A DNA stretch of 64,000 nucleotides from Okamejei kenojei (taxonomy: Eukaryota), in NCBI GenBank assembly GCA_035221665.1, contig CM069147.1:25668001-25732000 (forward strand), written 5' to 3'. The position numbers and the translations under genes were made by a program. The notes beneath the pieces are model-generated. The model made no database searches. It saw only the letters and a list, made by a program, of their open reading frames with translations, and was not told the origin of the DNA. Shown here piece after piece: positions 768-49,096 of the stretch (positions within the stretch are counted from its first letter, which is position 1; every line of letters starts with the position of its first letter).

Positions 768-878
768 GAATTAGCGTTAAACTCGTCTGCTTTCTGGCGG
801 GTGGATTTGCCATATGCGTGCTAATTATTCTAGCGCTGGCATTTTTTGCCAGGCGGTGCAAATTACACAGTACTGAAG
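768..878 (+). CDS. Gene A (SIRP-alpha/SHPS-1-like inhibitory IgSF receptor): transmembrane exon
   Basis: Acceptor ttttccctttag|, donor |gtaaga, 111 nt, phase 1-1. Encodes (G)ISVKLVCFLAGGFAICVLIILALAFFARRCKLHSTE: uncharged hydrophobic helix plus basic stop-transfer residues. Extracellular exons lie upstream of the window. Confidence 0.85.
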
Positions 879-2101: not shown

Positions 2102-2145
2102 CCCCAGAAAATATTGAGGATAGAACCCACCACTTCGAAAAACAG
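2102..2145 (+). CDS. Gene A: cytoplasmic exon 1
   Basis: ttctctactag|...cag|gtaatt, 44 nt, converts phase 1 to phase 0 as required between the flanking exons; (A)PENIEDRTHHFEKQ. Confidence 0.7.
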
Positions 2146-2780: not shown

Positions 2781-2868
2781 AATCCAACGTATGCAGATTT
2801 GAATTTCAGCGGACAGCAGAAAACTGAGAAAAACAGACGGCGCGAAAAAACTAATTATCTATGCCCAG
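2781..2868 (+). CDS. Gene A: cytoplasmic exon 2 (TYADL motif; ends IIYAQ after correcting a +1 frameshift)
   Basis: ttccctcag|AATCCAACGTATGCAGATTTG...TATGCCCAG|gtaaag, 88 nt. NPTYADLNFSGQQKTEKNRRRE; removing one A from an A run gives KLIIYAQ and phase 0, matching the next exon and the paralogous exon at 18990-19100. Confidence 0.8.
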
Positions 2869-3103
2869 GTAAAGAAAATAGTAAGATTAAACAAGAACTT
2901 ACCAGTTCGAAGTTTGATCGTTATTTTATGAGGAGTTACGATGAGGGATTACGTGAAGAACCCGCCTCACGCTGGCAACGGCATACTTCAAAGCAGCGGC
3001 ATGAAAAACACAGAACACCAAAAGCCGGAGTAACATAGTAAGGCTCATAAAAGACTTAGAACTACCATTTGATCATTTATTTTATGAGGGTGGGAGCGGA
3101 GGG

Positions 3104-3217
3104 CACGTAATCCCTCATCGTAACTCCTCATAAAAATAACGATCAAACTTCGAACTGGTAAGTTCTTGTTTAATCTTACCATTTTACTTCGGAGTCACGT
3201 GAGTGACTACGTGAAGA
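3104..3217. repeat. DIRS internal complementary region (ICR)
   Basis: 3104-3185 is the reverse complement of 2875-2955 (1 mismatch, 1 indel); 3181-3217 is the exact reverse complement of 7662-7698; the halves overlap on ATTTT. Confidence 0.95.
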
Positions 3218-3453
3218 TTTTAAAGCTTTCTGTGTTTTTTATGTCGTAGAATCAATCCGTACGACAGTCCGGCTAAGTAAACACATACATGAGAAACCAG
3301 ACTAATGTTAGATCATTTCACAATTAACTTCTTAATGGTTTAAAGACCATATAATAACCCTCCTTATATCTGAGGGAAAATGATTACAAGTGATAAAAGA
3401 TAGAAGTGACTACACCATTGATTATAGCAATTAATAGTAAACAAAGCAGGTGA

Positions 3454-4425
3454 TTATAGTGCTCCCAACACCGCGTGTCCAAAGCTTGTCATAGTGTGAA
3501 CAGGTTTATTGTAGAACTTTGAAAAAGTTTCTTCTTTACTCCACCCTGCGACTTTTAAAATATGCTCGAGAGGTACGTCCCGCCCCTTCGCCGCGGACGT
3601 AGCTGCCGCCCTGGTGGAGTGAGATTTGAACACATCAGTGTCTACTCCCGCTAAAACCAACACCTGTTTCAACCATTTTGAGATAGTTTGAACTGAAGCT
3701 TTTGTGTGTGGTTTTTTGTGCGTAACCATTAACGCTTTTTCATTTCCTCGAAGGGTGTCAGTAACTTTAATATATTCGTTCAAATGTTTAACCACACACA
3801 AAGTAGGATCAATATGATAAGCTTGAAAGGTTACCTTTGTTCCAGATCTCCCTGGTCTGCTTTGTTTGATCAACTCGTAAACATAGAACACAACATTATC
3901 TGTAGTCACATGCATACAGTCTAAACGCAACATTTGTAAAGTTTGCACTCTTTGAGCTGAGACCAGTGACATTAACATGACTAATTTCAATGTCAATCTT
4001 TCCAATGTCAACCCTTCAATTGGAGTCCATTGTCTAAGTAGCGTAAGTACAATGCTCACATCCCAAATCTCTGTGTATCTTGGTTTGGGTGGATTAATAT
4101 TAAAGATTCCTTTCATGAATCTAGATATTAATGGATGCGACCCAATTGATCTCTGATCAGTCATAAGCCCTAAATAGGACGACAAAGCACTGCGTGCAGT
4201 GTTAATGGCACTGTAACTTAAATGTTGCTGAAAATGCAAATTGGCAAGGAATTCCAAAACATTTGCAATATTTACAGTATCATAAGAAATATTTGACTGT
4301 GTGCAAAAGTCTTCCCATTTCTTAATATGTGTCATATATTGCTTTTGTGTGCTATTGCGCCATGATGCAACCATAACTTTCATAGTTTGGTCCGACAATC
4401 CCAGCTCCTGTAGTGGTCTGGTCAA
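3454..4425 (-). CDS. DIRS tyrosine recombinase (phage-integrase fold)
   Basis: 323-aa uninterrupted ORF with SAQR, HSTR, AGW and F..FY catalytic motifs. Confidence 0.95.
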   Translation of the reverse strand: MTRPLQELGLSDQTMKVMVASWRNSTQKQYMTHIKKWEDFCTQSNISYDTVNIANVLEFLANLHFQQHLSYSAINTARSALSSYLGLMTDQRSIGSHPLISRFMKGIFNINPPKPRYTEIWDVSIVLTLLRQWTPIEGLTLERLTLKLVMLMSLVSAQRVQTLQMLRLDCMHVTTDNVVFYVYELIKQSRPGRSGTKVTFQAYHIDPTLCVVKHLNEYIKVTDTLRGNEKALMVTHKKPHTKASVQTISKWLKQVLVLAGVDTDVFKSHSTRAAATSAAKGRDVPLEHILKVAGWSKEETFSKFYNKPVHTMTSFGHAVLGAL

Positions 4426-6419
4426 AACCTGCAGATTAACAAATTCATATATGCATACAATGGGTAAATCTCTTTAGTTACCGGATTAGTCAAGATATCA
4501 CTACAGTTAGGAATCGACATATATGGTTCTTTAATCATATTCAGCATTACTGGGAACCAAGGTTGAGTTGGCCAATTTGGAACTACCAACAATCCAGAAG
4601 CAGAATCTTGTTCTATCTTCTTCAGGCATCTCTGAATCAAAGCAAATGGTGGAAAAGCATAAAAGAACATCTTTCCCCAGTGTAATGAAAAAGCATCTAC
4701 TGCTACTGCATCTGGATCGTGTTCCCAAGACACATAAGTAGGCAACCGATGATTAAGCCTAGATGCAAACAAATCTATTTCTGGCAACCCAAATTGGTTT
4801 ACAATATTCTTAAATATTGCTGGCTTAAGCATCCATTCCGTATTATCTTTAAAAATCCTGGACCTTTCATCTGCTACCACATTGTCCTTACCCGGAATGT
4901 AGCTTGCTGAAATCCATATTTGGCGATCAATACACCATTGCCATATCTCATTGGCCAGACAATCACATGATACTGACCTAACTCCCCCCATGTGATTAAT
5001 GTATGCAACCGCCGTTTTATTGTCTAACTGTATTAACACATGTAGACCTTGTTTAGCACAACAATATGCTTTAAGTCCATAAAAAGCACCCAATAACTCC
5101 AAATAGTTAATACCATAAACTTGAAGAAACGCTTCTTCTTGAGCTTTCCATCTACCTCCACAACTGGAGGACGAATCTGTAGCCCCCCATCCGAGAGCAC
5201 TAGCATCCGTTTGTAAAACCATTTCAGGTTGTTTAATCATGATATTCTTAGCAGCTTGTGGGACATTTTCAACCCACCATTGTAATTCCAACACGGCTTC
5301 TTTTGTTAATTGCATAGGCCTGTCAAAGTGACCTGCCTTCTCTTTAAGAGCCCTTGTTTTGTCCCTTTGAAGATTTTGATAATGTAATGGACCAAATTCC
5401 ACTGCCGGAAATGCTGCTACCAGTTTCCCAATGGTTTTCGCCACTTCTCGGATGGAGGGATAAGGTTTGTGAGTGAGGTAATTACAAGTCATCAAGATGT
5501 CATTGGCCTTCTCTGTTGGCAAAGTAACTAACATAGTCACTGAGTTAATTACAAACCCCAAAAAGTTAATTGATTGTGCTGGCTGCAGCTGGGACTTAAT
5601 TGGATGAATCAAAAACCCTAGCTTTTCTAACAAAGCTTTAGTAACTGAAACTGAGTGCTCAGCTGACTCTTGAGTATCACTAATGATCAGAATATCATCC
5701 AGATAAGCCATAACAATGTGTTTCTGTGCTCTTAATTGGGCTAAAACTGGTTTCAACAGTTTTGTAAAGAGTCTAGGAGCCGAACTCAATCCATTTGGTA
5801 AAGCTTTAAACTGCCATAATTGTCCCAGCCAATTAAATTTTAAATACCTCCTGAAGCATTGATGAATTGCTACAGAATAATAGGCATCCTTCAAATCAAT
5901 CTTAGCCATATAACACCCTGCTGAGATAAGATATTTTGCAGTACTGAATGTCTCCATCTTAAAATGTTTGTATTCTACAAACTTATTCAGATCTGTAAGG
6001 TCCAGAATAATTCTGCAACCACCATCTTTTTTATCTCTTCGAAATATATTAGAGACAAATTGATGCTTATGTTCATAAGTCTTTTCAATTACGCCTTTTC
6101 CAGATAATTTGTCAATTTCCACATTAATCTCCATTCTTTCCTCTGCAGAAAACACATAAGCATAAGCAGGTCTATTCTGTACAGGAGGATTAACCCCTTC
6201 TTTAAAAATAATAATGGCTCCCGAAACTGTTTGTAATACATATCGATCAGAAGTAATGTTAAGCCAGGCATTATAAAATTTTTGCAATCTCCCTCCAACT
6301 GGAGAGTCATCCACAGTTTCTTTAAGTACATAAGTCTTTAATACCTCTGCGTATGAGCCTGGTGGTCTCCTTCTTCCCGAATACAGGGAAGCACTTGCTA
6401 AAATATTTAGCTTCTTCAT
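4422..6419 (-). CDS. DIRS pol: reverse transcriptase, RNase H and DAM-like methyltransferase domain
   Basis: 665-aa ORF with IDLKDAY, LPNGLSSAPRLFTK, YLDD, TDAS..GWG, INYLEL, DN, IDLFAS and YAFPPF motifs. Confidence 0.96.
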   Translation of the reverse strand: MKKLNILASASLYSGRRRPPGSYAEVLKTYVLKETVDDSPVGGRLQKFYNAWLNITSDRYVLQTVSGAIIIFKEGVNPPVQNRPAYAYVFSAEERMEINVEIDKLSGKGVIEKTYEHKHQFVSNIFRRDKKDGGCRIILDLTDLNKFVEYKHFKMETFSTAKYLISAGCYMAKIDLKDAYYSVAIHQCFRRYLKFNWLGQLWQFKALPNGLSSAPRLFTKLLKPVLAQLRAQKHIVMAYLDDILIISDTQESAEHSVSVTKALLEKLGFLIHPIKSQLQPAQSINFLGFVINSVTMLVTLPTEKANDILMTCNYLTHKPYPSIREVAKTIGKLVAAFPAVEFGPLHYQNLQRDKTRALKEKAGHFDRPMQLTKEAVLELQWWVENVPQAAKNIMIKQPEMVLQTDASALGWGATDSSSSCGGRWKAQEEAFLQVYGINYLELLGAFYGLKAYCCAKQGLHVLIQLDNKTAVAYINHMGGVRSVSCDCLANEIWQWCIDRQIWISASYIPGKDNVVADERSRIFKDNTEWMLKPAIFKNIVNQFGLPEIDLFASRLNHRLPTYVSWEHDPDAVAVDAFSLHWGKMFFYAFPPFALIQRCLKKIEQDSASGLLVVPNWPTQPWFPVMLNMIKEPYMSIPNCSDILTNPVTKEIYPLYAYMNLLICRF

Positions 6420-7444
6420 CCAACTCTTTCAGCTGTTTCGGCAGATTTTCTCCAAACAAATACCCAGGAGCTTGAACTCCACTTTCTTGACACAGGCTTG
6501 CAAATCTAGGGTGAAATATGGGCCGAATCGCCATTTTCCTCATGCAATTAATTTCATAGAATGAATTACATAATAAGCCCAAAGTATCCTTTTGAATCTT
6601 TTCCATTTCCAGATTCTCCATTTGCCTGCCATAGGCCGTAATGGCGGCAGAAATTAATTTGAGCACCTTTTGAAACTTCACTTCTAGGGCTCTCATACTT
6701 GGAGTCATAGACGTCCATATCATCGGATTCACCATAGGTACTTCCAATGAGGCACAATTTCTTGGAGCTTTATATAATTCTGATGTTTCATTCATCACAG
6801 AATTGTGAAGTTGGTGAGATACCATATAATTTATGTTTGCAGCTAGGATTTCTTCCATAGCCTCACCACTTCCTTCAGGTATAGCAAAATCTTGTGCTAT
6901 CCCAGGCACATTAGGCCTTTTCTTTTTACTTTGTGGTGTGCTTTCAAAAGCCATATAGCCACCAGCAGGGTCTGCCTTCTGCAGCCCTAAATCAATTGGG
7001 ATATCATCCCATGAGACTTCTTCCAGCCCAAATCCTGGGTCCGGAGTATCATATTCCCAACTTGGCCCACAGCCATATTCATCATATTCAAACCCCTCAG
7101 GGATTTTTTGGGATTCATCTGGGTACTCTGACCCTTGTCTCATTATTGTTTGGAGAACTTTCTCCATATGCTCCATTTTTAGCCACATAGTTTTATTGTC
7201 TGGAGGTCTTTCAATATCAGAGTCATCAGAAACCACGGGCCTCTCAGATTTCTTTTTGCATTTTTTAGGAACATTTTCCTCCGTGGTTATTATTTCTGGA
7301 GAATCTGGAAACTCACTATCGGGTACATCAGCGGCCAACGGTATCGGAACCGGGTCCGCACTAACTTCGCGTCCCGTATTTTTACTTTCACCCCGGGAAC
7401 ATCTTTTTACCCGCGAAAACTTCTTTCCCGATTTCTCAATTTTT
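6322..7444 (-). CDS. DIRS gag-like ORF1 (the frame is open from 7444; possible spliced first exon 7638-7562)
   Basis: The ORF track gives 6322-7338 from a TTG; the frame stays open to a TAA at 7449-7447. Lies upstream of and overlaps pol; YLFGENL motif near the C-terminus. Confidence 0.8.
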
Positions 7445-7756
7445 CTTTAATAATCAGTGCTCAATCAGCACGTTAACGTGGCTCTAAATTTTTCTTTTGG
7501 TTTCGTTTTGCTGGAGCCACCCAGCGTAACCTAAAAAACGCCCCGGTCTAACTGCACTTACCTGCGGGCCGTTCCGACCACTGCCGAGGAGCTGCTCCTT
7601 ACTGCAGCTCCTCCTCGCGCCGTCAGCGTTGACGTCATGCCGTTGCCAGCGTGAGGCGGGTTCTTCACGTAGTCACTCACGTGACTCCGAAGTAAAATTG
7701 GAAGTGTGCTGCAAGGAAAATTCGCGTACGTCGCCCATATGGGCGAATCGGCAACT

Positions 7757-8537
7757 CATAGAAACATAGAAACATAGAAACATAGAAACATAGAAATTAG
7801 GTGCAGGAGTAGGCCATTCAGCCCTTCGAGCCTGCACCGCCATTCAATATGATCATGGCTGATCATCCAACTCAGTATCCCGTACCTGCCTTCTCTCCAT
7901 ACCCTCTGATCCCCTTAGCCACAAGGGCCACATCCAACTCACTCTTAAATATAGCCAATGAACTGGCCTCAACTACCCTCTGTGGCAGAGAGTTCCAGAG
8001 ACTCACCACTCTCTGTGTGAAGAAAGTCTTTCTCATCTCGGTCTTAAAGGATTTCCCCCTTATCCTTAAGCTGTGACCCCTTGTCCTGGACTTCCCCAAC
8101 ATCGGGAACAATCTTCCTGCATCTAGCCTGTCCAACCCCTTAAGAATTTTGTAAGTTTTCTATAAGATCCCCTCTTAATCTCCTAAATTCCAGAGAGTAT
8201 AAACCAAGTCTATCCAGTCTTTCTTCATAAGACAGTCCTGACATCCCAGGAATCAGTCTGGTGAACCTTCTCTGCACTCCCTCTATGGCAATAATGTCCT
8301 TCCTCAGATTTGGAGACCAAAACTGCACGCAATACTCCAGGTGTGGTCTCACCAAGACCCTGTACAACTGAAGTAGAACCTCCCTGCTCCTGTACTCAAA
8401 TCCTTTTGCTATGAAAGCTAACATACCATTCGCTTTTTTCACTGCCTGCTGCACCTGCATGCCTACTTTCAATGACTGGTGTACCATGACACCCAGGTCT
8501 CGCTGCATCTCCCCTTTTCCTAATCGGCCACCATTTA
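7757..8537 (-). mobile_element. 5'-truncated CR1 LINE in the last intron of gene A
   Basis: [13 protein letters not shown] and FFTQRVVSLWNSLP ORF2 C-terminal motifs; (GAAACATA)n tail at about 7757-7795. Confidence 0.93.
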
Positions 8538-8578
8538 ATGTATATACATAATCATGATCTCTGATTATTTTTCGATAG

Positions 8579-8701
8579 GTCAAAGAAATGTCTGAAAATG
8601 AACGGACATATGCAACTCTGGATCTCACCGCTACTCTGAAAGATCCAAGAACAGCGAAGAACAATGAAACAGAGTATGCAGGAATCAGGATTATTAAGTA
8701 G
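8579..8701 (+). CDS. Gene A: terminal cytoplasmic exon with ITIM-like TYATL and ITSM TEYAGI
   Basis: tttttcgatag| then VKEMSENERTYATLDLTATLKDPRTAKNNETEYAGIRIIK-TAG; phase 0, 41 codons including the stop. Confidence 0.85.
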   Translation, partial: VKEMSENERTYATLDLTATLKDPRTAKNNETEYAGIRIIK

Positions 8702-18989: not shown

Positions 18990-19100
18990 CTGGGCATATA
19001 TCGTGCTTTCTTCAAAGTATCTGGATTTAGTAGATGTCTCCAGACCAGCGATGTTAAGAGTAGTGTATGTTAACTTTGGATCACGTTTGGAATTGCACGT
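18990..19100 (-). CDS. Orphan SIRP-like cytoplasmic exon (ITIM LTYTTL, TIYAQ end), paralogous to gene A exon 2781-2868
   Basis: tttcag|...GCCCAG|gtaagt, 111 nt, phase 0-0, open: TCNSKRDPKLTYTTLNIAGLETSTKSRYFEESTIYAQ. Confidence 0.75.
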
Positions 19101-36740: not shown

Positions 36741-36857
36741 TTATTGGCGGTTTGTTGTCAGTGGCATTATCCGTACAATTGTTTGCTCTCTTTTCTTGTT
36801 TCCTGCCGTAAGGAGCGGAGCGTAGATCACTTTAGCATGCATCGGTTTCTGCTTGGT
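36741..36857 (-). CDS. Gene B: candidate terminal cytoplasmic exon with ITIM VIYAPL
   Basis: Acceptor cccctaattttcatctcgcag|, phase 0: TKQKPMHAKVIYAPLLTAGNKKREQTIVRIMPLTTNRQ-TAA; AATAAA overlaps the stop. Confidence 0.65.
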   Translation of the reverse strand, partial: TKQKPMHAKVIYAPLLTAGNKKREQTIVRIMPLTTNRQ

Positions 36858-37221
36858 CTGCGAGATGAAAATTAGGGGAAAGAATATTAATTCATGTTGT
36901 AAGTTGCTTTAAATCTCATGGAGACACGAAAGCATCGCAGGATCAGAAATTATTATAACAGGCTGCCGAGTAAAAGTAATAAAAATTAACGACAGATACT
37001 GGTTTATACCAAAGACAGATGCTGGTGTGAGTCAGCGGGTAAGGCAGCATCTCTGACGAAAATGCACAGGTGATTTTGGGGTCGGGACCCTTCTTTAGTC
37101 TGATTTTGTGTGTCTATGTGTGTGTGTCTGCGTGTGTGACTGTGTGTGTGTGTGTCTGCGTGTGTGTTTGTTTTTTTTTTTTGTGTTTTTTTGTGTGTGT
37201 GTGTTTTGTGAGTGTGTGAAT

Positions 37222-38961: not shown

Positions 38962-40420
38962 CTTAGAATTTACAAACGTAAATAAACAAATTGCAGCCAA
39001 CTGATGGAACAGAAGTAATCGAGTATCCGATTTTTCATTTCATTTCATATCAAAATTCAACTACTGTTTCCAAGTTGTTGTCAGGCTATGCTACAGCGGC
39101 ATTGTCCTGTCATCTTCTGGGGGGATGCTGCAAGTATATATATATAACTCTTACTTCAAATTTACAAAGCGTTATTTGAACTACAACTAAAAACGTCGTC
39201 TGTTTCTATGCGCTAACTTAAAGAAAGGAACAGTGTTACACGACACAGTTCAGTGAAGGTCCCCTGAGATGACTGCGGGTGCCTTGTGGTTTCGCTTTAC
39301 GCGGGAATAGAGCGCAGCTTGATCCTGTACGGATTGGACATCCTACTACTGACTTCGTGGCTTGGCAGGGTACATACTGGGCATGCAATGCGTGCCAGGC
39401 AAACATGGCAAATATGCATCCGTGGTAGGCATTCATGATTTTGCTCTGGAGGTAAGAGCATTCAATAGACCTTAGGCATTTTGTTGACAGCAGGTACAAT
39501 TTTTTAGAAGTGATTTTCAATATATCAGCTTGGCAAGATGGGTTTTCATCTAGCATTCGTGTTAACGGACAAAACACTTTGAACGGCTGGTACGTAGAGG
39601 TATTGGTAGCAGTAACCCTGCTAACCAAATTCTGTTGTATGGAAGGCAAAGGCAGATATTTCAACGTAACTTCTTTCATGGGGATGTAAATGTGAAATGT
39701 TTCTTCAGATTACTCTAATGGTAATTTAATACATCGCAGACTTGCGATGGTTCTTTTTAAGATAATGCTGCATTTTTGTTCAATCGGCTCTACTGCTAAT
39801 TTTGTATAATATATTATATTTCAAAACTAATTCCATGGATTTTGAGTACATACCATTAATATCAGATATTCCTCCTTCTTTTGGGTACGTGGTAAATTAA
39901 TAATATTAATTAGTTATCAAGTTACAAAAATTGCATTTTGTCACCCGATAAAAAGCGGTTCACAAGCGGTACATTGGTGGTTAATATAGATCGATGGAGT
40001 CGATCATCTGCAAAGACATGGCTATATCCCGCATCGATATTAATATGCTGATATCGTCAGTCATTTAATTCTAGGTAGTGTTTTTTCGGGAATACATAAT
40101 TGGACGAGATCTTCAGTTCTGAGGGGAACAGCACGTGACAGTAAGGTATTAGTGTACTTAAAAATGTGCGGAATAGCGAATATGAATGCTTTCATGAAAG
40201 GCAATTACTTTTCCTAGATGGAATATGAAGGATACACATTGTAACATAAAACATTAATACAGAGCACAGGAACTGGTCCCTCGGCCCACAATATGTTTGC
40301 CGAACATGATGATAAGATAGAATAAGGTATATTCCCCAAGAATAGAGAGTTCATGTGCCTCACGGTCTGGAGCTTTAGCCCCCTGAACAAAATGCTTAGT
40401 TGTTTTAAATTATTTTTTAC

Positions 40421-40519
40421 CTTTATTTTTTCTTGCAATATAACGTATTGCAATGCCAAGAGGCAGTAGTAAAGTTACTAAACCGCATATTATCCTGACG
40501 CAATTGATGATTGTAGTAC
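40421..40519 (-). CDS. Gene B: transmembrane exon containing an arginine
   Basis: gcttttcaatcttacag|...aaag|gtaaaa, 99 nt, phase 1-1: (G)[32 protein letters not shown]. Confidence 0.7.
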
Positions 40520-45600: not shown

Positions 45601-45961
45601 CTGAACTTTAATGCATTTCCTGAAGAAATGGCCGCGAGCGACATTAAACTTGTTGCTGATCTCCGACAAAGCGCGGATAAACATTGCACATGCCCATCTC
45701 TCCTGATACGTATTATACTTAAATTGACTGAATACTCTAAACGGAATAAGCAAGTCGGTTAAGGGCTTTATCTGCTCCAACTACAACTTAATTCAATCTG
45801 AAATCCACGCTATTGATTTCAACAATATAATGAAGACAGCAAGGTAGAAATACCATACTTTTGCAACTTAGCAATCATCCTCTCCATCAAAGCCACTTCG
45901 CTCCCCAAACACGACGATCTGAATCCGCTACAATCGAACATTCTAATGGTTTCTACGTTAC

Positions 45962-46267
45962 CTGTTTTGGAATCCGGAACATGAAACGTTGCAGTCAGTG
46001 GAGTAGGAAGAGTGAGGTGCGCCACTTGGCAAGTATACACCGACCCGCCCTGGAGTGTCCTTGTTTCCTTTAAATGACTGGAAACATAATACAATCCATT
46101 CATTGTCAGTTTTACCGTTGTATCTATGTCCTCGAAAATCTCAATACCATTTCGGTACCAAGTAAGGCTTAATGACTCCGGGTAAAATTCATCCGTTTTA
46201 CACAAGAGATTCAATGTGCTTGAGTTTTGATCAGGCAGTTTGGAGATTCTGAGCTGAGCTGGCGGAA
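45962..46267 (-). CDS. Gene B: Ig C1-set domain exon (SIRP-like receptor)
   Basis: ttacatttgcag|...acag|gtaacg, 306 nt, phase 1-1. LLCKTDEFYPESLSLTWYRNG ... GLYYVSSHL ... YTCQVAH are C1 hallmarks (C-x4-FYP, W, YxCxVxH). Confidence 0.93.
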
Positions 46268-46436
46268 CTGCAAATGTAAAGCAGAAAATGTATTTGTGAT
46301 CCGGAAAACAACTACACGATCATAACTATTTTGTACAATAATGGTCGACGACCTCATAATTGCAAGATTATAGAAACGTTCAAGAGGTTAGCATAATTTC
46401 GGCTGTTTTTTTCGGATATCAACAACATAAATCGTA

Positions 46437-47722: not shown

Positions 47723-48606
47723 GTCCTCATCAGCCGTGCAATCTGATTCTGTACACGTCCTTTAAAAAAATAAAAGCCTTAATGAGCAACTTGACAGCAA
47801 GCATCTGAGAAGAATGAAAACTTTATTTTGCGCTTCCAATCGTTGCCCATTGTTTCGAATAGTGTGAATAGCTACCTCTGTTGATTTATTTTTCGCCAAA
47901 AATGGTCAGTTTATCTTTAACTTAATTCGCAATTTTACGGATTTGCTCTGTTTTTCAAATCCCAGACTGAGCGCCCTATATGACTTAGTTTTTTTGAAGT
48001 AAGAACAAATTAATTGGTAAATAGAAAAACACATAGGAATATCAGGTGTAAACCATTTATGTTTACTGGGGGGAGTGGAGGAGACGTTAGACACCGCTAC
48101 GGCAATTTGATACCGCGTTGAATGTTTTAAAAAATCCAGCTAGGGGAGAAGGCCGGCAGGGCGGGTCCATGATGAGGGGGAATGTTGGAGACTGGAGAAG
48201 TGACCGTAACAGGGCGACGGTTATGCCGCACAGGCAGTTGGAAATAAAATGGTCCAAAGAAATGCTTCCCAACTATTACATCCACAGTTTTGTCCTGCCC
48301 CTCCTCTCTTCCAGCTTTATACCTCCCACCCAGTGCAGATATTAGATCGCATTGATCGGCCTCGCAAAGTACTGCTCAAGATAGTAACTGTGTTGGGATC
48401 TGTGTTTCGGTGAAATTTGAGCAGCGTCCTCATATTAACAGCAAACAAACCAACCAATTAGACAGTTGTCCTGGGATCTTAAGACATAATATGACATAGA
48501 ACATGGGTAACTTCGAATGACAAACCTTGCCACATTGCTTTCCAGAATGATAATATTGAACAATAATAGAATAATAACTCTATATTGATTTTACTGTTAC
48601 ACATAC

Positions 48607-48928
48607 CGAAGACTTTGATTTCTGGTGCCAGATCCATTCACAATTTCGCTTCCCTGAATTCCCACTCCACAGTAATAGACTCCATCATCATCTGCATGGA
48701 TATTCAATATATGCAAGGAGGCTCCACCTTGTTTAAAACGAACAAATATCTTCCTACTGTCAGAAGCTGTTTGCAGAAAGTTCTGTTCGCCAAGTTTCCA
48801 CCAATAAAATTCCACATGTAGACTATTGTGCGATAGGTCAATAATGCAATAGAGAGTGATATTTGAATGTAAGATCACGTGTTTGCTCGTCGGAGATTGA
48901 TCCACTTGGTAGTGATCTTCAACGGCAA
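48607..48928 (-). CDS. Gene B: Ig V-set exon, germline-joined VJ type (SIRP/NKp30-like), with a +1 frameshift in the G strand
   Basis: ttttcttctgctacag|...cg|gtatgt, 322 nt. VDQSP..ITLYC..FYWWK..ASLHILNIHADDDGVYYCGV..NGSGT; deleting one base at 48624-48625 gives GSGTEIKVF and phase 1. Confidence 0.92.
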
Positions 48929-49096
48929 CTGTAGCAGAAGAAAATCAAATATTATCGCATAACAGACGAGGACAGACACAATTAATCGTACTTTTAAAAG
49001 ATGCGTGAAAGTGGATGTGCGTTCGATATACGGGTGTTGATCACAGAGGGCGTAAGCCAGTAAGAGGATGAAAACAAAAGAAAAATCGCAAAATAC

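What the first reader, a model, noticed from the sequence alone, without database searches (positions are those of the whole stretch)
2781..8701. Gene A tail reproduces the four-tyrosine layout of mammalian SIRP-alpha
Seen: spliced tail TYADLNF...IIYAQ|V...RTYATLDL...TEYAGI. Known (from memory): human SIRP-alpha has ITYADLNL...TEYASI...LTYADLDM...SEYASV, two tandem pairs that recruit SHP-1/SHP-2. Inference: the CD47-SIRP-alpha style inhibitory module, or at least its tail, dates back to early jawed vertebrates. One motif (IIYAQV) forms only across a splice junction.
Basis: partly seen in the sequence, partly recalled or inferred. Interest (0 to 1): 0.7.

Follow-up and report, generated by a model that had tools for sequence, protein, structure and literature searches.

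The report
Shark-skate V-C1 inhibitory immune receptor gene
This is the tail end of one gene in a large cluster of two-domain antibody-like surface-protein genes of sharks, rays and chimaeras; its four tyrosines likely act as an immune brake in the manner of SIRP-alpha, but it has a different outer part and chromosome position, so descent from the SIRP-alpha gene is unproven, and the tail is frameshifted in this assembly, likely by a one-base error.

Summary
Partly confirmed. The four tyrosine motifs are at the stated places, but the exon at 2781-2868 is 88 nt, so the first motif is out of frame with the other three and canonical splicing stops after it. Three runs of one sample show the exon one A shorter (87 nt, in frame) and without the 4.8-kb DIRS-like insert that follows it; two paralogues also have 87 nt. 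The four-tyrosine tail is therefore real for the gene. Upstream lie leader, one V and one C1 exon: a V-C1 receptor, not SIRP-alpha's V-C1-C1. It belongs to a family clustered on one chromosome beside OSGIN1-like in sharks and rays, with likely activating siblings; databases already auto-label many members SIRPA-like. The tail is two copies of an exon-sized two-tyrosine unit whose copy number varies in the family. The ectodomain is not specifically SIRP-like (a lungfish control is), and the NSFL1C/prodynorphin region is on another contig. A V-domain tree neither supports nor rejects a sister relation to SIRPs, and a lungfish SIRP tail resembles the shark tails somewhat beyond its motifs. It likely works like SIRP-alpha inside the cell; nothing here supports CD47 binding.

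The parts
768..878 (+). Transmembrane exon of gene A (111 nt, phase 1-1); no charged residue in the hydrophobic stretch
   Evidence: 90-94% identical copies in two paralogues
2102..2145 (+). First cytoplasmic exon (44 nt, phase 1 to 0)
   Evidence: conserved in three paralogues
2781..2868 (+). Second cytoplasmic exon: first two-tyrosine unit; 88 nt in the assembly, 87 nt in reads and paralogues
2845..2850 (+). Run of six A; one base longer than in sample S1 contigs, shifting the frame
2875..7698 (-). DIRS-like retrotransposon inserted a few bases after the splice donor: tyrosine recombinase ORF 3454-4473, reverse transcriptase ORF 4422-6428, third ORF 6322-7446, terminal inverted repeats; absent from the S1 allele
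   Evidence: the name DIRS is from my knowledge of this ORF/repeat layout
7759..8549 (-). 3' fragment of a LINE-type repeat in the same intron (33 matches over 600 bp in 864 kb, counting itself; best others 98.7-99.0% identical)
   Evidence: LINE label recalled
8579..8701 (+). Last coding exon: second two-tyrosine unit and stop codon

Best explanation
Gene A has leader, one V, one C1, transmembrane and three cytoplasmic exons and is a likely inhibitory member of a cartilaginous-fish family of likely paired, non-rearranging V-C1 receptors, not a demonstrated SIRP-alpha orthologue. Shown: exon structure, family, cluster, four tyrosines in the 87-nt form, tail made of two exon-sized units. Inferred: on ligand binding to the V domain, Src-family kinases would phosphorylate the tail and a tyrosine pair 22-23 residues apart would bind both SH2 domains of SHP-1/SHP-2, damping activation; the distal pair is likely the core site because the second tyrosine is the one most often lost in relatives. 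Short-tailed siblings with a transmembrane arginine would signal the opposite way through an ITAM adaptor. The ligand is unknown. The extra A in the window is more likely an assembly error (about 2 to 1) than a real null allele.
For: Gene model in frame from leader to the A run; exactly one C1 exon in the 18 kb between V and TM. 87-nt exon in 3 of 3 runs of S1 and 2 of 2 paralogues; paralogue at C17:25.43-25.45 Mb has an open four-tyrosine tail. The proenkephalin exon on C4 carries an apparent one-base insertion in a T run in the same assembly. 55 of 59 genome matches of the horn-shark orthologue are on C17, in two clusters. 50 of 55 profile hits are chondrichthyan, including chimaera. Family members and OSGIN1-like sit on contigs of the same length in 7 of 7 species where both records give one. 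Tail unit occurs in 1 to 4 copies. Ten family proteins have an arginine in the outer part of the TM and tails of 6-56 residues. Ala at pY+1, which favours SHP-1 (PMC8631942, passages), is present in all four motifs.
Against: No expression, ligand or phosphatase data. Only 2 of 4 motifs fit the strict consensus. The S1 contigs lack the DIRS insert, so they represent another allele and do not directly test the assembled haplotype. The nearest ESM Atlas clusters of the horn-shark orthologue are SIRP-alpha-like (0.97, 0.96; CD33 and BTLA 0.94), a lungfish SIRP-family tail matches the shark tail profile better than 296 of 300 motif-kept shuffles, and no better SIRP candidate turned up elsewhere in the genome: all compatible with kinship to SIRP.
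Confidence: 0.65

Rival explanations
1. The family is the cartilaginous-fish sister group (co-orthologue) of SIRPs: V-C1 ectodomain and two-unit tail are inherited from the gnathostome ancestor, the second C1 was added and the locus moved in the bony-fish line.
For: Monophyly of family + SIRP V domains is not rejected (AU p 0.264). Lungfish P0249 (69% identical over two C1 domains to the SIRP-type P0304) has a four-tyrosine tail spaced 23/15/26, between the family (23/13-14/23) and human SIRP-alpha (24/17/26, from positions in PMC12765318); it scores 39.7 bits on the shark tail profile, 4 of 300 motif-kept shuffles reaching that. SIRP-alpha is the best-ranked non-antibody-like structure for the family profile (113 bits, rank 5). 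Atlas features rank SIRP-alpha clusters first. No SIRP-type V exon was found elsewhere in G000.
Against: P0249 was found by a search with a family member, so its tail match is selected for. The family and the SIRP V domains form separate clades with an unresolved base, and grouping with turtle multi-V genes is equally allowed (p 0.372). Family C1 profile scores lungfish SIRP C1 (34-49 bits) no better than B7-H6 C1 (39-48) or a coelacanth V-C1 protein (55). Different chromosome context. One C1 only.
Confidence: 0.25
2. The assembled haplotype is a real damaged allele: a frameshift plus a recent 4.8-kb retrotransposon just behind the splice donor leave a receptor with one tyrosine motif or no stable mRNA. 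(Independent of the question of family membership.)
For: The DIRS-like insert is in the assembly but not in S1, so the haplotypes differ; the same intron also holds a young LINE fragment (5,710 nt against 96-97 nt in paralogues); several neighbouring copies are broken.
Against: All upstream exons, splice sites and the last exon are intact; the extra base is in a homopolymer and the assembly shows the same kind of defect in proenkephalin.
Confidence: 0.3
3. The 88-nt exon is real and the frame is rescued by another splice site (acceptor at 8586 or at 2810), giving a three-motif tail.
For: Both alternatives give open frames to the normal stop.
Against: Paralogues use the homologous 2781 and 8579 sites with an 87-nt exon; 8586 lies 7 nt behind a good AG; reads show 87 nt.
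Confidence: 0.04

Closest known systems
SIRP-alpha (PTPNS1/SHPS-1/CD172a) and the SIRP paired family
   Same: V domain with J-like end plus C1-set domain; four cytoplasmic tyrosines in two pairs; clustered genes with short-tailed, charged-TM siblings; NCBI auto-names many shark members 'tyrosine-protein phosphatase non-receptor type substrate 1-like'.
   Different: One C1 instead of two; no specific sequence affinity (51 bits against 144 for a lungfish SIRP); spacing 23/13/22 against 24/17/26; tail split over two repeated exons; on the OSGIN1 chromosome, not with NSFL1C/prodynorphin; activating-type siblings carry Arg near the outer TM end (SIRP-beta uses DAP12; that its residue is Lys is recalled); no evidence for CD47 as ligand.
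UrIg / UrIg2 of elasmobranchs (PMC12227049, passages read)
   Same: Non-rearranging VJ exon followed by C1 domains; top or second PDB hit for the family.
   Different: UrIg has three C1 and is secreted; UrIg2 has many C1 domains, lies in the antigen-receptor complex, and the paper's text has no mention of ITIM (0 occurrences).
PRARP of birds, reptiles, amphibians and fish (recalled; paper not found in the library)
   Same: Recalled as non-rearranging V(J) or V-C1 membrane proteins with ITIM/ITSM; named among joined-VJ IgSF genes in PMC11599192.
   Different: Not compared here: no sequence or locus available.
B7-H6 (NCR3LG1) and B7-H3 (CD276)
   Same: V + C ectodomain; cow B7-H6 was the only tetrapod hit of the seeded profile search (E 8e-19); B7-H3 ranks above SIRP-alpha for the horn-shark protein.
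   Different: Their V domains fall in a separate clade from VJ-type domains; no ITIM-type tail in the B7-H6 record.
Turtle multi-V proteins XP_053904980 and XP_037733860
   Same: Among the best non-chondrichthyan scores on the family V profile (34-52 bits, as is one coelacanth V-C1 protein at 51); terrapin protein has three tyrosine motifs and lies on a contig of the same length as terrapin OSGIN1.
   Different: Four to six V domains, no C1; orthology not resolved by the tree.

Membership tests
SIRP family | Ectodomain of one V-set plus two C1-set domains (PMC12975943, PMC2785349) | tested here: not met
   One C1 exon between V and TM; relatives are V-C1
SIRP family | Membrane-proximal domain is C1-set: F-[FYH]-P in BC loop, CxVxH, 13 residues from Cys to Trp (PMC2785349) | tested here: met
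   Gene A C1 exon has all three; Pfam C1-set in relatives
SIRP family | V domain with joined J-like GxG end | tested here: met
   G99 and G101 nearly invariant in 57 rows; shared with many non-SIRP genes (PMC11599192)
SIRP family | SIRP is the clear best sequence match among solved structures | tested here: not met
   Horn-shark orthologue 51 bits, rank 4; family profile 113 bits, rank 5; gene A V exon lists no SIRP among 26 hits; control lungfish P0304 144.5 bits against 80.9 for the next non-SIRP
SIRP family | V domains group with SIRP V domains in a tree | tested here: inconclusive
   Separate clades, unresolved base; AU p 0.264; only lungfish and lizard SIRP-type rows, no mammalian rows
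SIRP family | V-domain fold closest to SIRP d1 | tested here: inconclusive
   Model pLDDT 84; top rows are tied V-set folds, Z 13.5-14.6
SIRP family | Cluster on the human chromosome 20 counterpart (PMC9652883), between NSFL1C and PDYN (neighbours recalled) | tested here: not met
   SEP-domain and prodynorphin-type genes on C20 (42.47 and 40.92 Mb) and their paralogues on C4; gene A on C17 beside OSGIN1-like; no V or C1 exon in 400 kb fetched beside the two C20 markers, about 300 kb of it within the 1.55-Mb interval
SIRP family | Four cytoplasmic tyrosines in ITIM/ITSM motifs (SIRP-alpha Y429, Y453, Y470, Y496; PMC12765318) | tested here: inconclusive
   Four tyrosines in the 87-nt form, two meeting the consensus; one motif in the assembly as written
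SIRP family | Binds CD47 | not testable with these tools
   No CD47 sequence of this species was obtained
SIRP family | Phosphorylated tail recruits SHP-1/SHP-2 | not testable with these tools
   Inferred from motifs and 22-23-residue spacing (PMC8631942)
Paired Ig-like receptor families (general kind) | Clustered paralogues with similar ectodomains | tested here: met
   About 12 V and 12 whole C1 exons in C17:25.37-25.87 Mb, second cluster at 20.34-20.76 Mb
Paired Ig-like receptor families (general kind) | Both ITIM-tailed members and short-tailed members with a charged TM residue | tested here: met
   two TM exons in the local cluster carry Arg
Paired Ig-like receptor families (general kind) | Opposite signalling on leukocytes | not testable with these tools
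   No expression or signalling data
PRARP | Orthology by sequence and locus | not tested
   No PRARP sequence or paper was available

The most novel reading that the evidence does not exclude
This chondrichthyan V-C1 paired-receptor family is the sister lineage of SIRPs, so that a non-rearranging VJ-C1 receptor with a duplicated two-tyrosine exon unit already existed in the first jawed vertebrates; SIRP-alpha's four-tyrosine tail descends from that unit, and the family is a living model for the origin of SIRPs, which a 2022 review calls unknown.
Probability: 0.25. Interest if true: 0.7.

Novelty: new variant of a known kind. Interest (0 to 1): 0.38.

Why it matters
The origin of SIRPs is stated to be unknown (PMC9652883), and non-rearranging VJ-C1 genes are discussed as relatives of the antigen-receptor precursor (PMC10751288, PMC12227049). 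A multi-gene, likely paired VJ-C1 receptor family conserved from chimaera to skates gives a testable candidate for the leukocyte checkpoint receptors of cartilaginous fish, whether or not it is kin to SIRP. The particular claim of an ancient CD47-SIRP-alpha axis is not supported, database labels already say 'SIRPA-like', and this scan has noted the family at least eight times, which lowers the surprise of this window.

Tried and rejected
Expression: no RNA holder was listed; the one possible RNA run laid (X22) looked like DNA and did not cover the exons; no evidence either way. CD47: Pfam V-set_CD47 gave four weak matches (E 0.03-0.7, not examined) and the CD47 TM family none, with no positive control ringing; no conclusion. 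Fold searches listed no SIRP entry among the 50 rows shown in each; rows are tied, so this excludes nothing. Flanking-gene scan: 99 of 1,033 candidate ORFs were scanned with Pfam; only the OSGIN-type exon and a 7TM ORF passed cut-offs; a NECAB-like exon was recognised by eye only. The regex scan for Ig exons returned nothing and was replaced by tblastn and profiles. Paralogue A3 coordinates were off by one and were corrected. Whether the S1 allele carries the LINE fragment could not be settled. No complex prediction was run. Ohta 2019, Flajnik 2012 and Dornburg & Yoder 2022 were not held; they may describe this family. No supplements were opened.
Full report
Observation. The first two are in different frames. 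The exon is 88 nt, and splicing it to 8579 after the upstream TM (768-878) and 44-nt (2102-2145) exons gives a stop just after the junction. The tail as quoted cannot be read from the window as written.

Is the extra base real? A DNA search of the genome found this exon and two paralogues (3 matches); both paralogues are 87 nt and open through both tyrosines. In 3 of 3 laid runs of sample S1 (X1, X2, X4) one 203-nt contig covers 2762-2879 with no substitution and one base left out in the A run at 2845-2850; no contig with six A is counted in the depth there. The same contig continues with letters that match window 7699-7728 at 29 of 30, so this allele also lacks 2880-7698. The fourth run (X5, sample S2, 92% read) listed only paralogue contigs over the exon. 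Contigs drop rare variants, and S1 shows another allele, so the assembled haplotype itself is untested. One independent sign of error: the proenkephalin exon on C4 shifts frame at a T run in this assembly. I put about 2 to 1 on an assembly error.

The intron. It is 5,710 nt against 96-97 nt in the paralogues. It holds a 4,824-nt element with tyrosine recombinase and reverse transcriptase ORFs and inverted terminal repeats, the layout of DIRS retrotransposons (recalled), and a 0.8-kb fragment of an abundant LINE-type repeat.

The whole gene. Upstream, outside the window, lie a 55-nt leader exon (C17:25,650,583), a 324-nt V exon (25,650,839) and a 282-nt C1 exon (25,663,104); all join in frame up to the A run. 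A profile scan at full sensitivity finds one C1 exon between V and TM. The C1 domain has the three marks listed in PMC2785349 (part 2 of 4 and passages read). The protein is leader-V-C1-TM-tail; SIRP-alpha is V-C1-C1 (PMC12975943, passages).

The family. The V exon's 4 database hits are horn-shark and catshark proteins, auto-named SIRPA-like or tapasin-related-like; the horn-shark protein has four tyrosines in the same layout. It matches 59 places in G000, 55 on C17, in clusters at 20.34-20.76 and 25.37-25.86 Mb; the local cluster has about 12 V and 12 whole C1 exons plus broken ones. Of 55 profile hits, 50 are chondrichthyan (chimaera, sharks, rays), 4 lungfish and 1 cow B7-H6 (a seeded search of limited reach). 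Ten family proteins have Arg in the outer TM and short tails (picked from 18 flagged of 90 TM-bearing proteins), the pattern of activating partners (recalled).

The tail. In the 87-nt form the tyrosines are spaced 23/13/22. Of 37 family tails that I picked for having a tail (some near-duplicates), 19 have four tyrosines at 22-23/13-14/22-23 and 6 have lost the second only. Each pair sits on its own phase-0 exon, and members carry one to four such units, so four tyrosines is what two copies give. Human SIRP-alpha positions (PMC12765318, passages) give 24/17/26. PMC8631942 (passages) gives the ITIM and ITSM consensus, notes that at least 32 human receptors have tandem motifs with similar spacing, and shows that Ala at pY+1 favours SHP-1. 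Gene A has Ala there in all four motifs, but only the second and fourth meet the consensus at -2.

Is it a SIRP? Against: the horn-shark orthologue scores 51 bits on SIRP-alpha, behind UrIg2 (58) and B7-H3 (55); the family profile ranks it fifth; a lungfish protein used as positive control scores 144.5, far above the next non-SIRP at 80.9. SEP-domain genes map to C20:42.47 and C4:58.1 Mb and opioid precursors to C20:40.92 (prodynorphin type) and C4:56.54 Mb (proenkephalin type), typed by eye from their translations; that NSFL1C and PDYN flank human SIRPs is recalled. 400 kb fetched beside the two C20 markers hold no V or C1 exon. Gene A's cluster instead lies about 70 kb from an OSGIN1-like gene, and family members share a contig length with OSGIN1-like in 7 of 7 shark and ray species where both records give one. 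For: ESM Atlas features put SIRP-alpha clusters first (0.97, 0.96 against 0.94 for CD33 and BTLA); a lungfish SIRP-family tail (P0249, 69% identical to the control over two C1 domains) is spaced 23/15/26 and scores 39.7 bits on a shark-only tail profile, reached by 0 of 300 full and 4 of 300 motif-kept shuffles, against 11-12 bits for two shorter ITIM tails, though it was found by a family search; and lungfish queries found no SIRP-type V exon and nothing on C20 or C4 (99 of 161 candidates scored in the latter). In V-domain trees the family (92/84 and 96/87) and the lungfish-lizard SIRP domains (94/90 and 98/97) are separate clades with an open base; holding them together is not rejected (AU p 0.264), nor is joining the family to turtle multi-V genes (p 0.372) (39 and 28 rows, no mammalian SIRP). 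The V model is an ordinary V-set fold tied among VNAR, TCR, PD-1, NKp30 and NCAM.

Mechanism. Shown: architecture, family, cluster, motifs. Inferred from known ITIM biology: ligand-induced phosphorylation, bivalent SHP-1/SHP-2 binding to a tyrosine pair, damping of leukocyte activation, opposed by Arg-TM siblings through an ITAM adaptor. Nothing here points to CD47.

Literature. Nine full-text searches found no description of this family in the listings returned. SIRP + cartilaginous fish + ITIM gave 1 paper, on Xenopus CEACAMs (listing only); SIRP + Chondrichthyes + synteny gave 1 (PMC11599192, passages), which only lists SIRP among joined-VJ genes. PMC9652883 (passages) reports SIRPs in mammals, birds and lizards and calls their origin unknown. 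PMC10751288 and PMC12227049 (passages) discuss other VJ-C1 genes. Three key papers were not held, so absence from print is not shown. Eight earlier scan notes on other genomes, read after my analysis, describe the same family with the same verdict; they are not independent support.

Verdict. A real gene, an inhibitory-type member of a chondrichthyan V-C1 paired-receptor family. It likely works like SIRP-alpha on the cytoplasmic side; membership of the SIRP family fails on domain number, specific similarity and locus, while sister-group kinship stays open at about 1 in 4.

Noticed in passing
window 2875-7698 (-): Full-length DIRS-like retrotransposon with open ORFs, inserted a few bases behind a splice donor and absent from the allele in sample S1: a polymorphic insertion in an immune-receptor intron. 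Its terminus is very abundant in the reads; the closest long copies in 864 kb are 79-86% identical.
   Followed up: partly
window 48597-48944, 45819-46319, about 40420-40519 and about 36830-36860 (-): A second family gene on the minus strand: V and C1 exons, a TM exon with Arg, then a tail exon that in phase 1 ends after eight residues (as in database protein P0185) but in another frame still shows a tyrosine motif; suggests an activating member derived from an inhibitory one by a frame change. The V exon's end looks shifted, and its V/C1 and TM match different paralogue types, so it may be chimeric or mis-joined.
   Followed up: partly
window about 18990-19080 (-): An isolated two-tyrosine tail exon of the same family, with copies at C17:25.407 and 25.590 Mb.
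   Followed up: no
L052 (G000:C4:56.539 Mb): Proenkephalin exon shifts frame at a T run: probable homopolymer insertion error in the assembly.
   Followed up: partly
P0304, P0268, P0249, P0216 (lungfish database proteins): Lungfish has clear SIRP-type genes (144 bits to human SIRP-alpha), one with a four-tyrosine tail and one with a TM arginine and short tail; the review read lists SIRPs only for mammals, birds and lizards.
   Followed up: partly
P0236, P0189 (turtle database proteins): Multi-V tyrosine-motif proteins; the terrapin one shares a contig length with terrapin OSGIN1 and may be a tetrapod remnant of this locus.
   Followed up: partly
L087:5416-5835 (+), L081:4429-5433 (-), L073:7782-8810 (-): Flanking genes: a NECAB-like exon (by eye), OSGIN1-like, and a single-exon 7TM receptor. 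From memory, NECAB/OSGIN regions of human 16q, 8q and 20q are genome-duplication paralogues, which would leave room for an ohnologue link to the chromosome-20 SIRPs; untested.
   Followed up: no
G000:C17:25.484-25.488 Mb (-): Paralogue with the third tyrosine replaced by Phe, a degenerate donor at its 44-nt exon and no V exon found before an assembly gap.
   Followed up: partly
G000:C8:22.28-23.07 Mb: A separate cluster of at least eight V-type exons hit by the turtle query.
   Followed up: no
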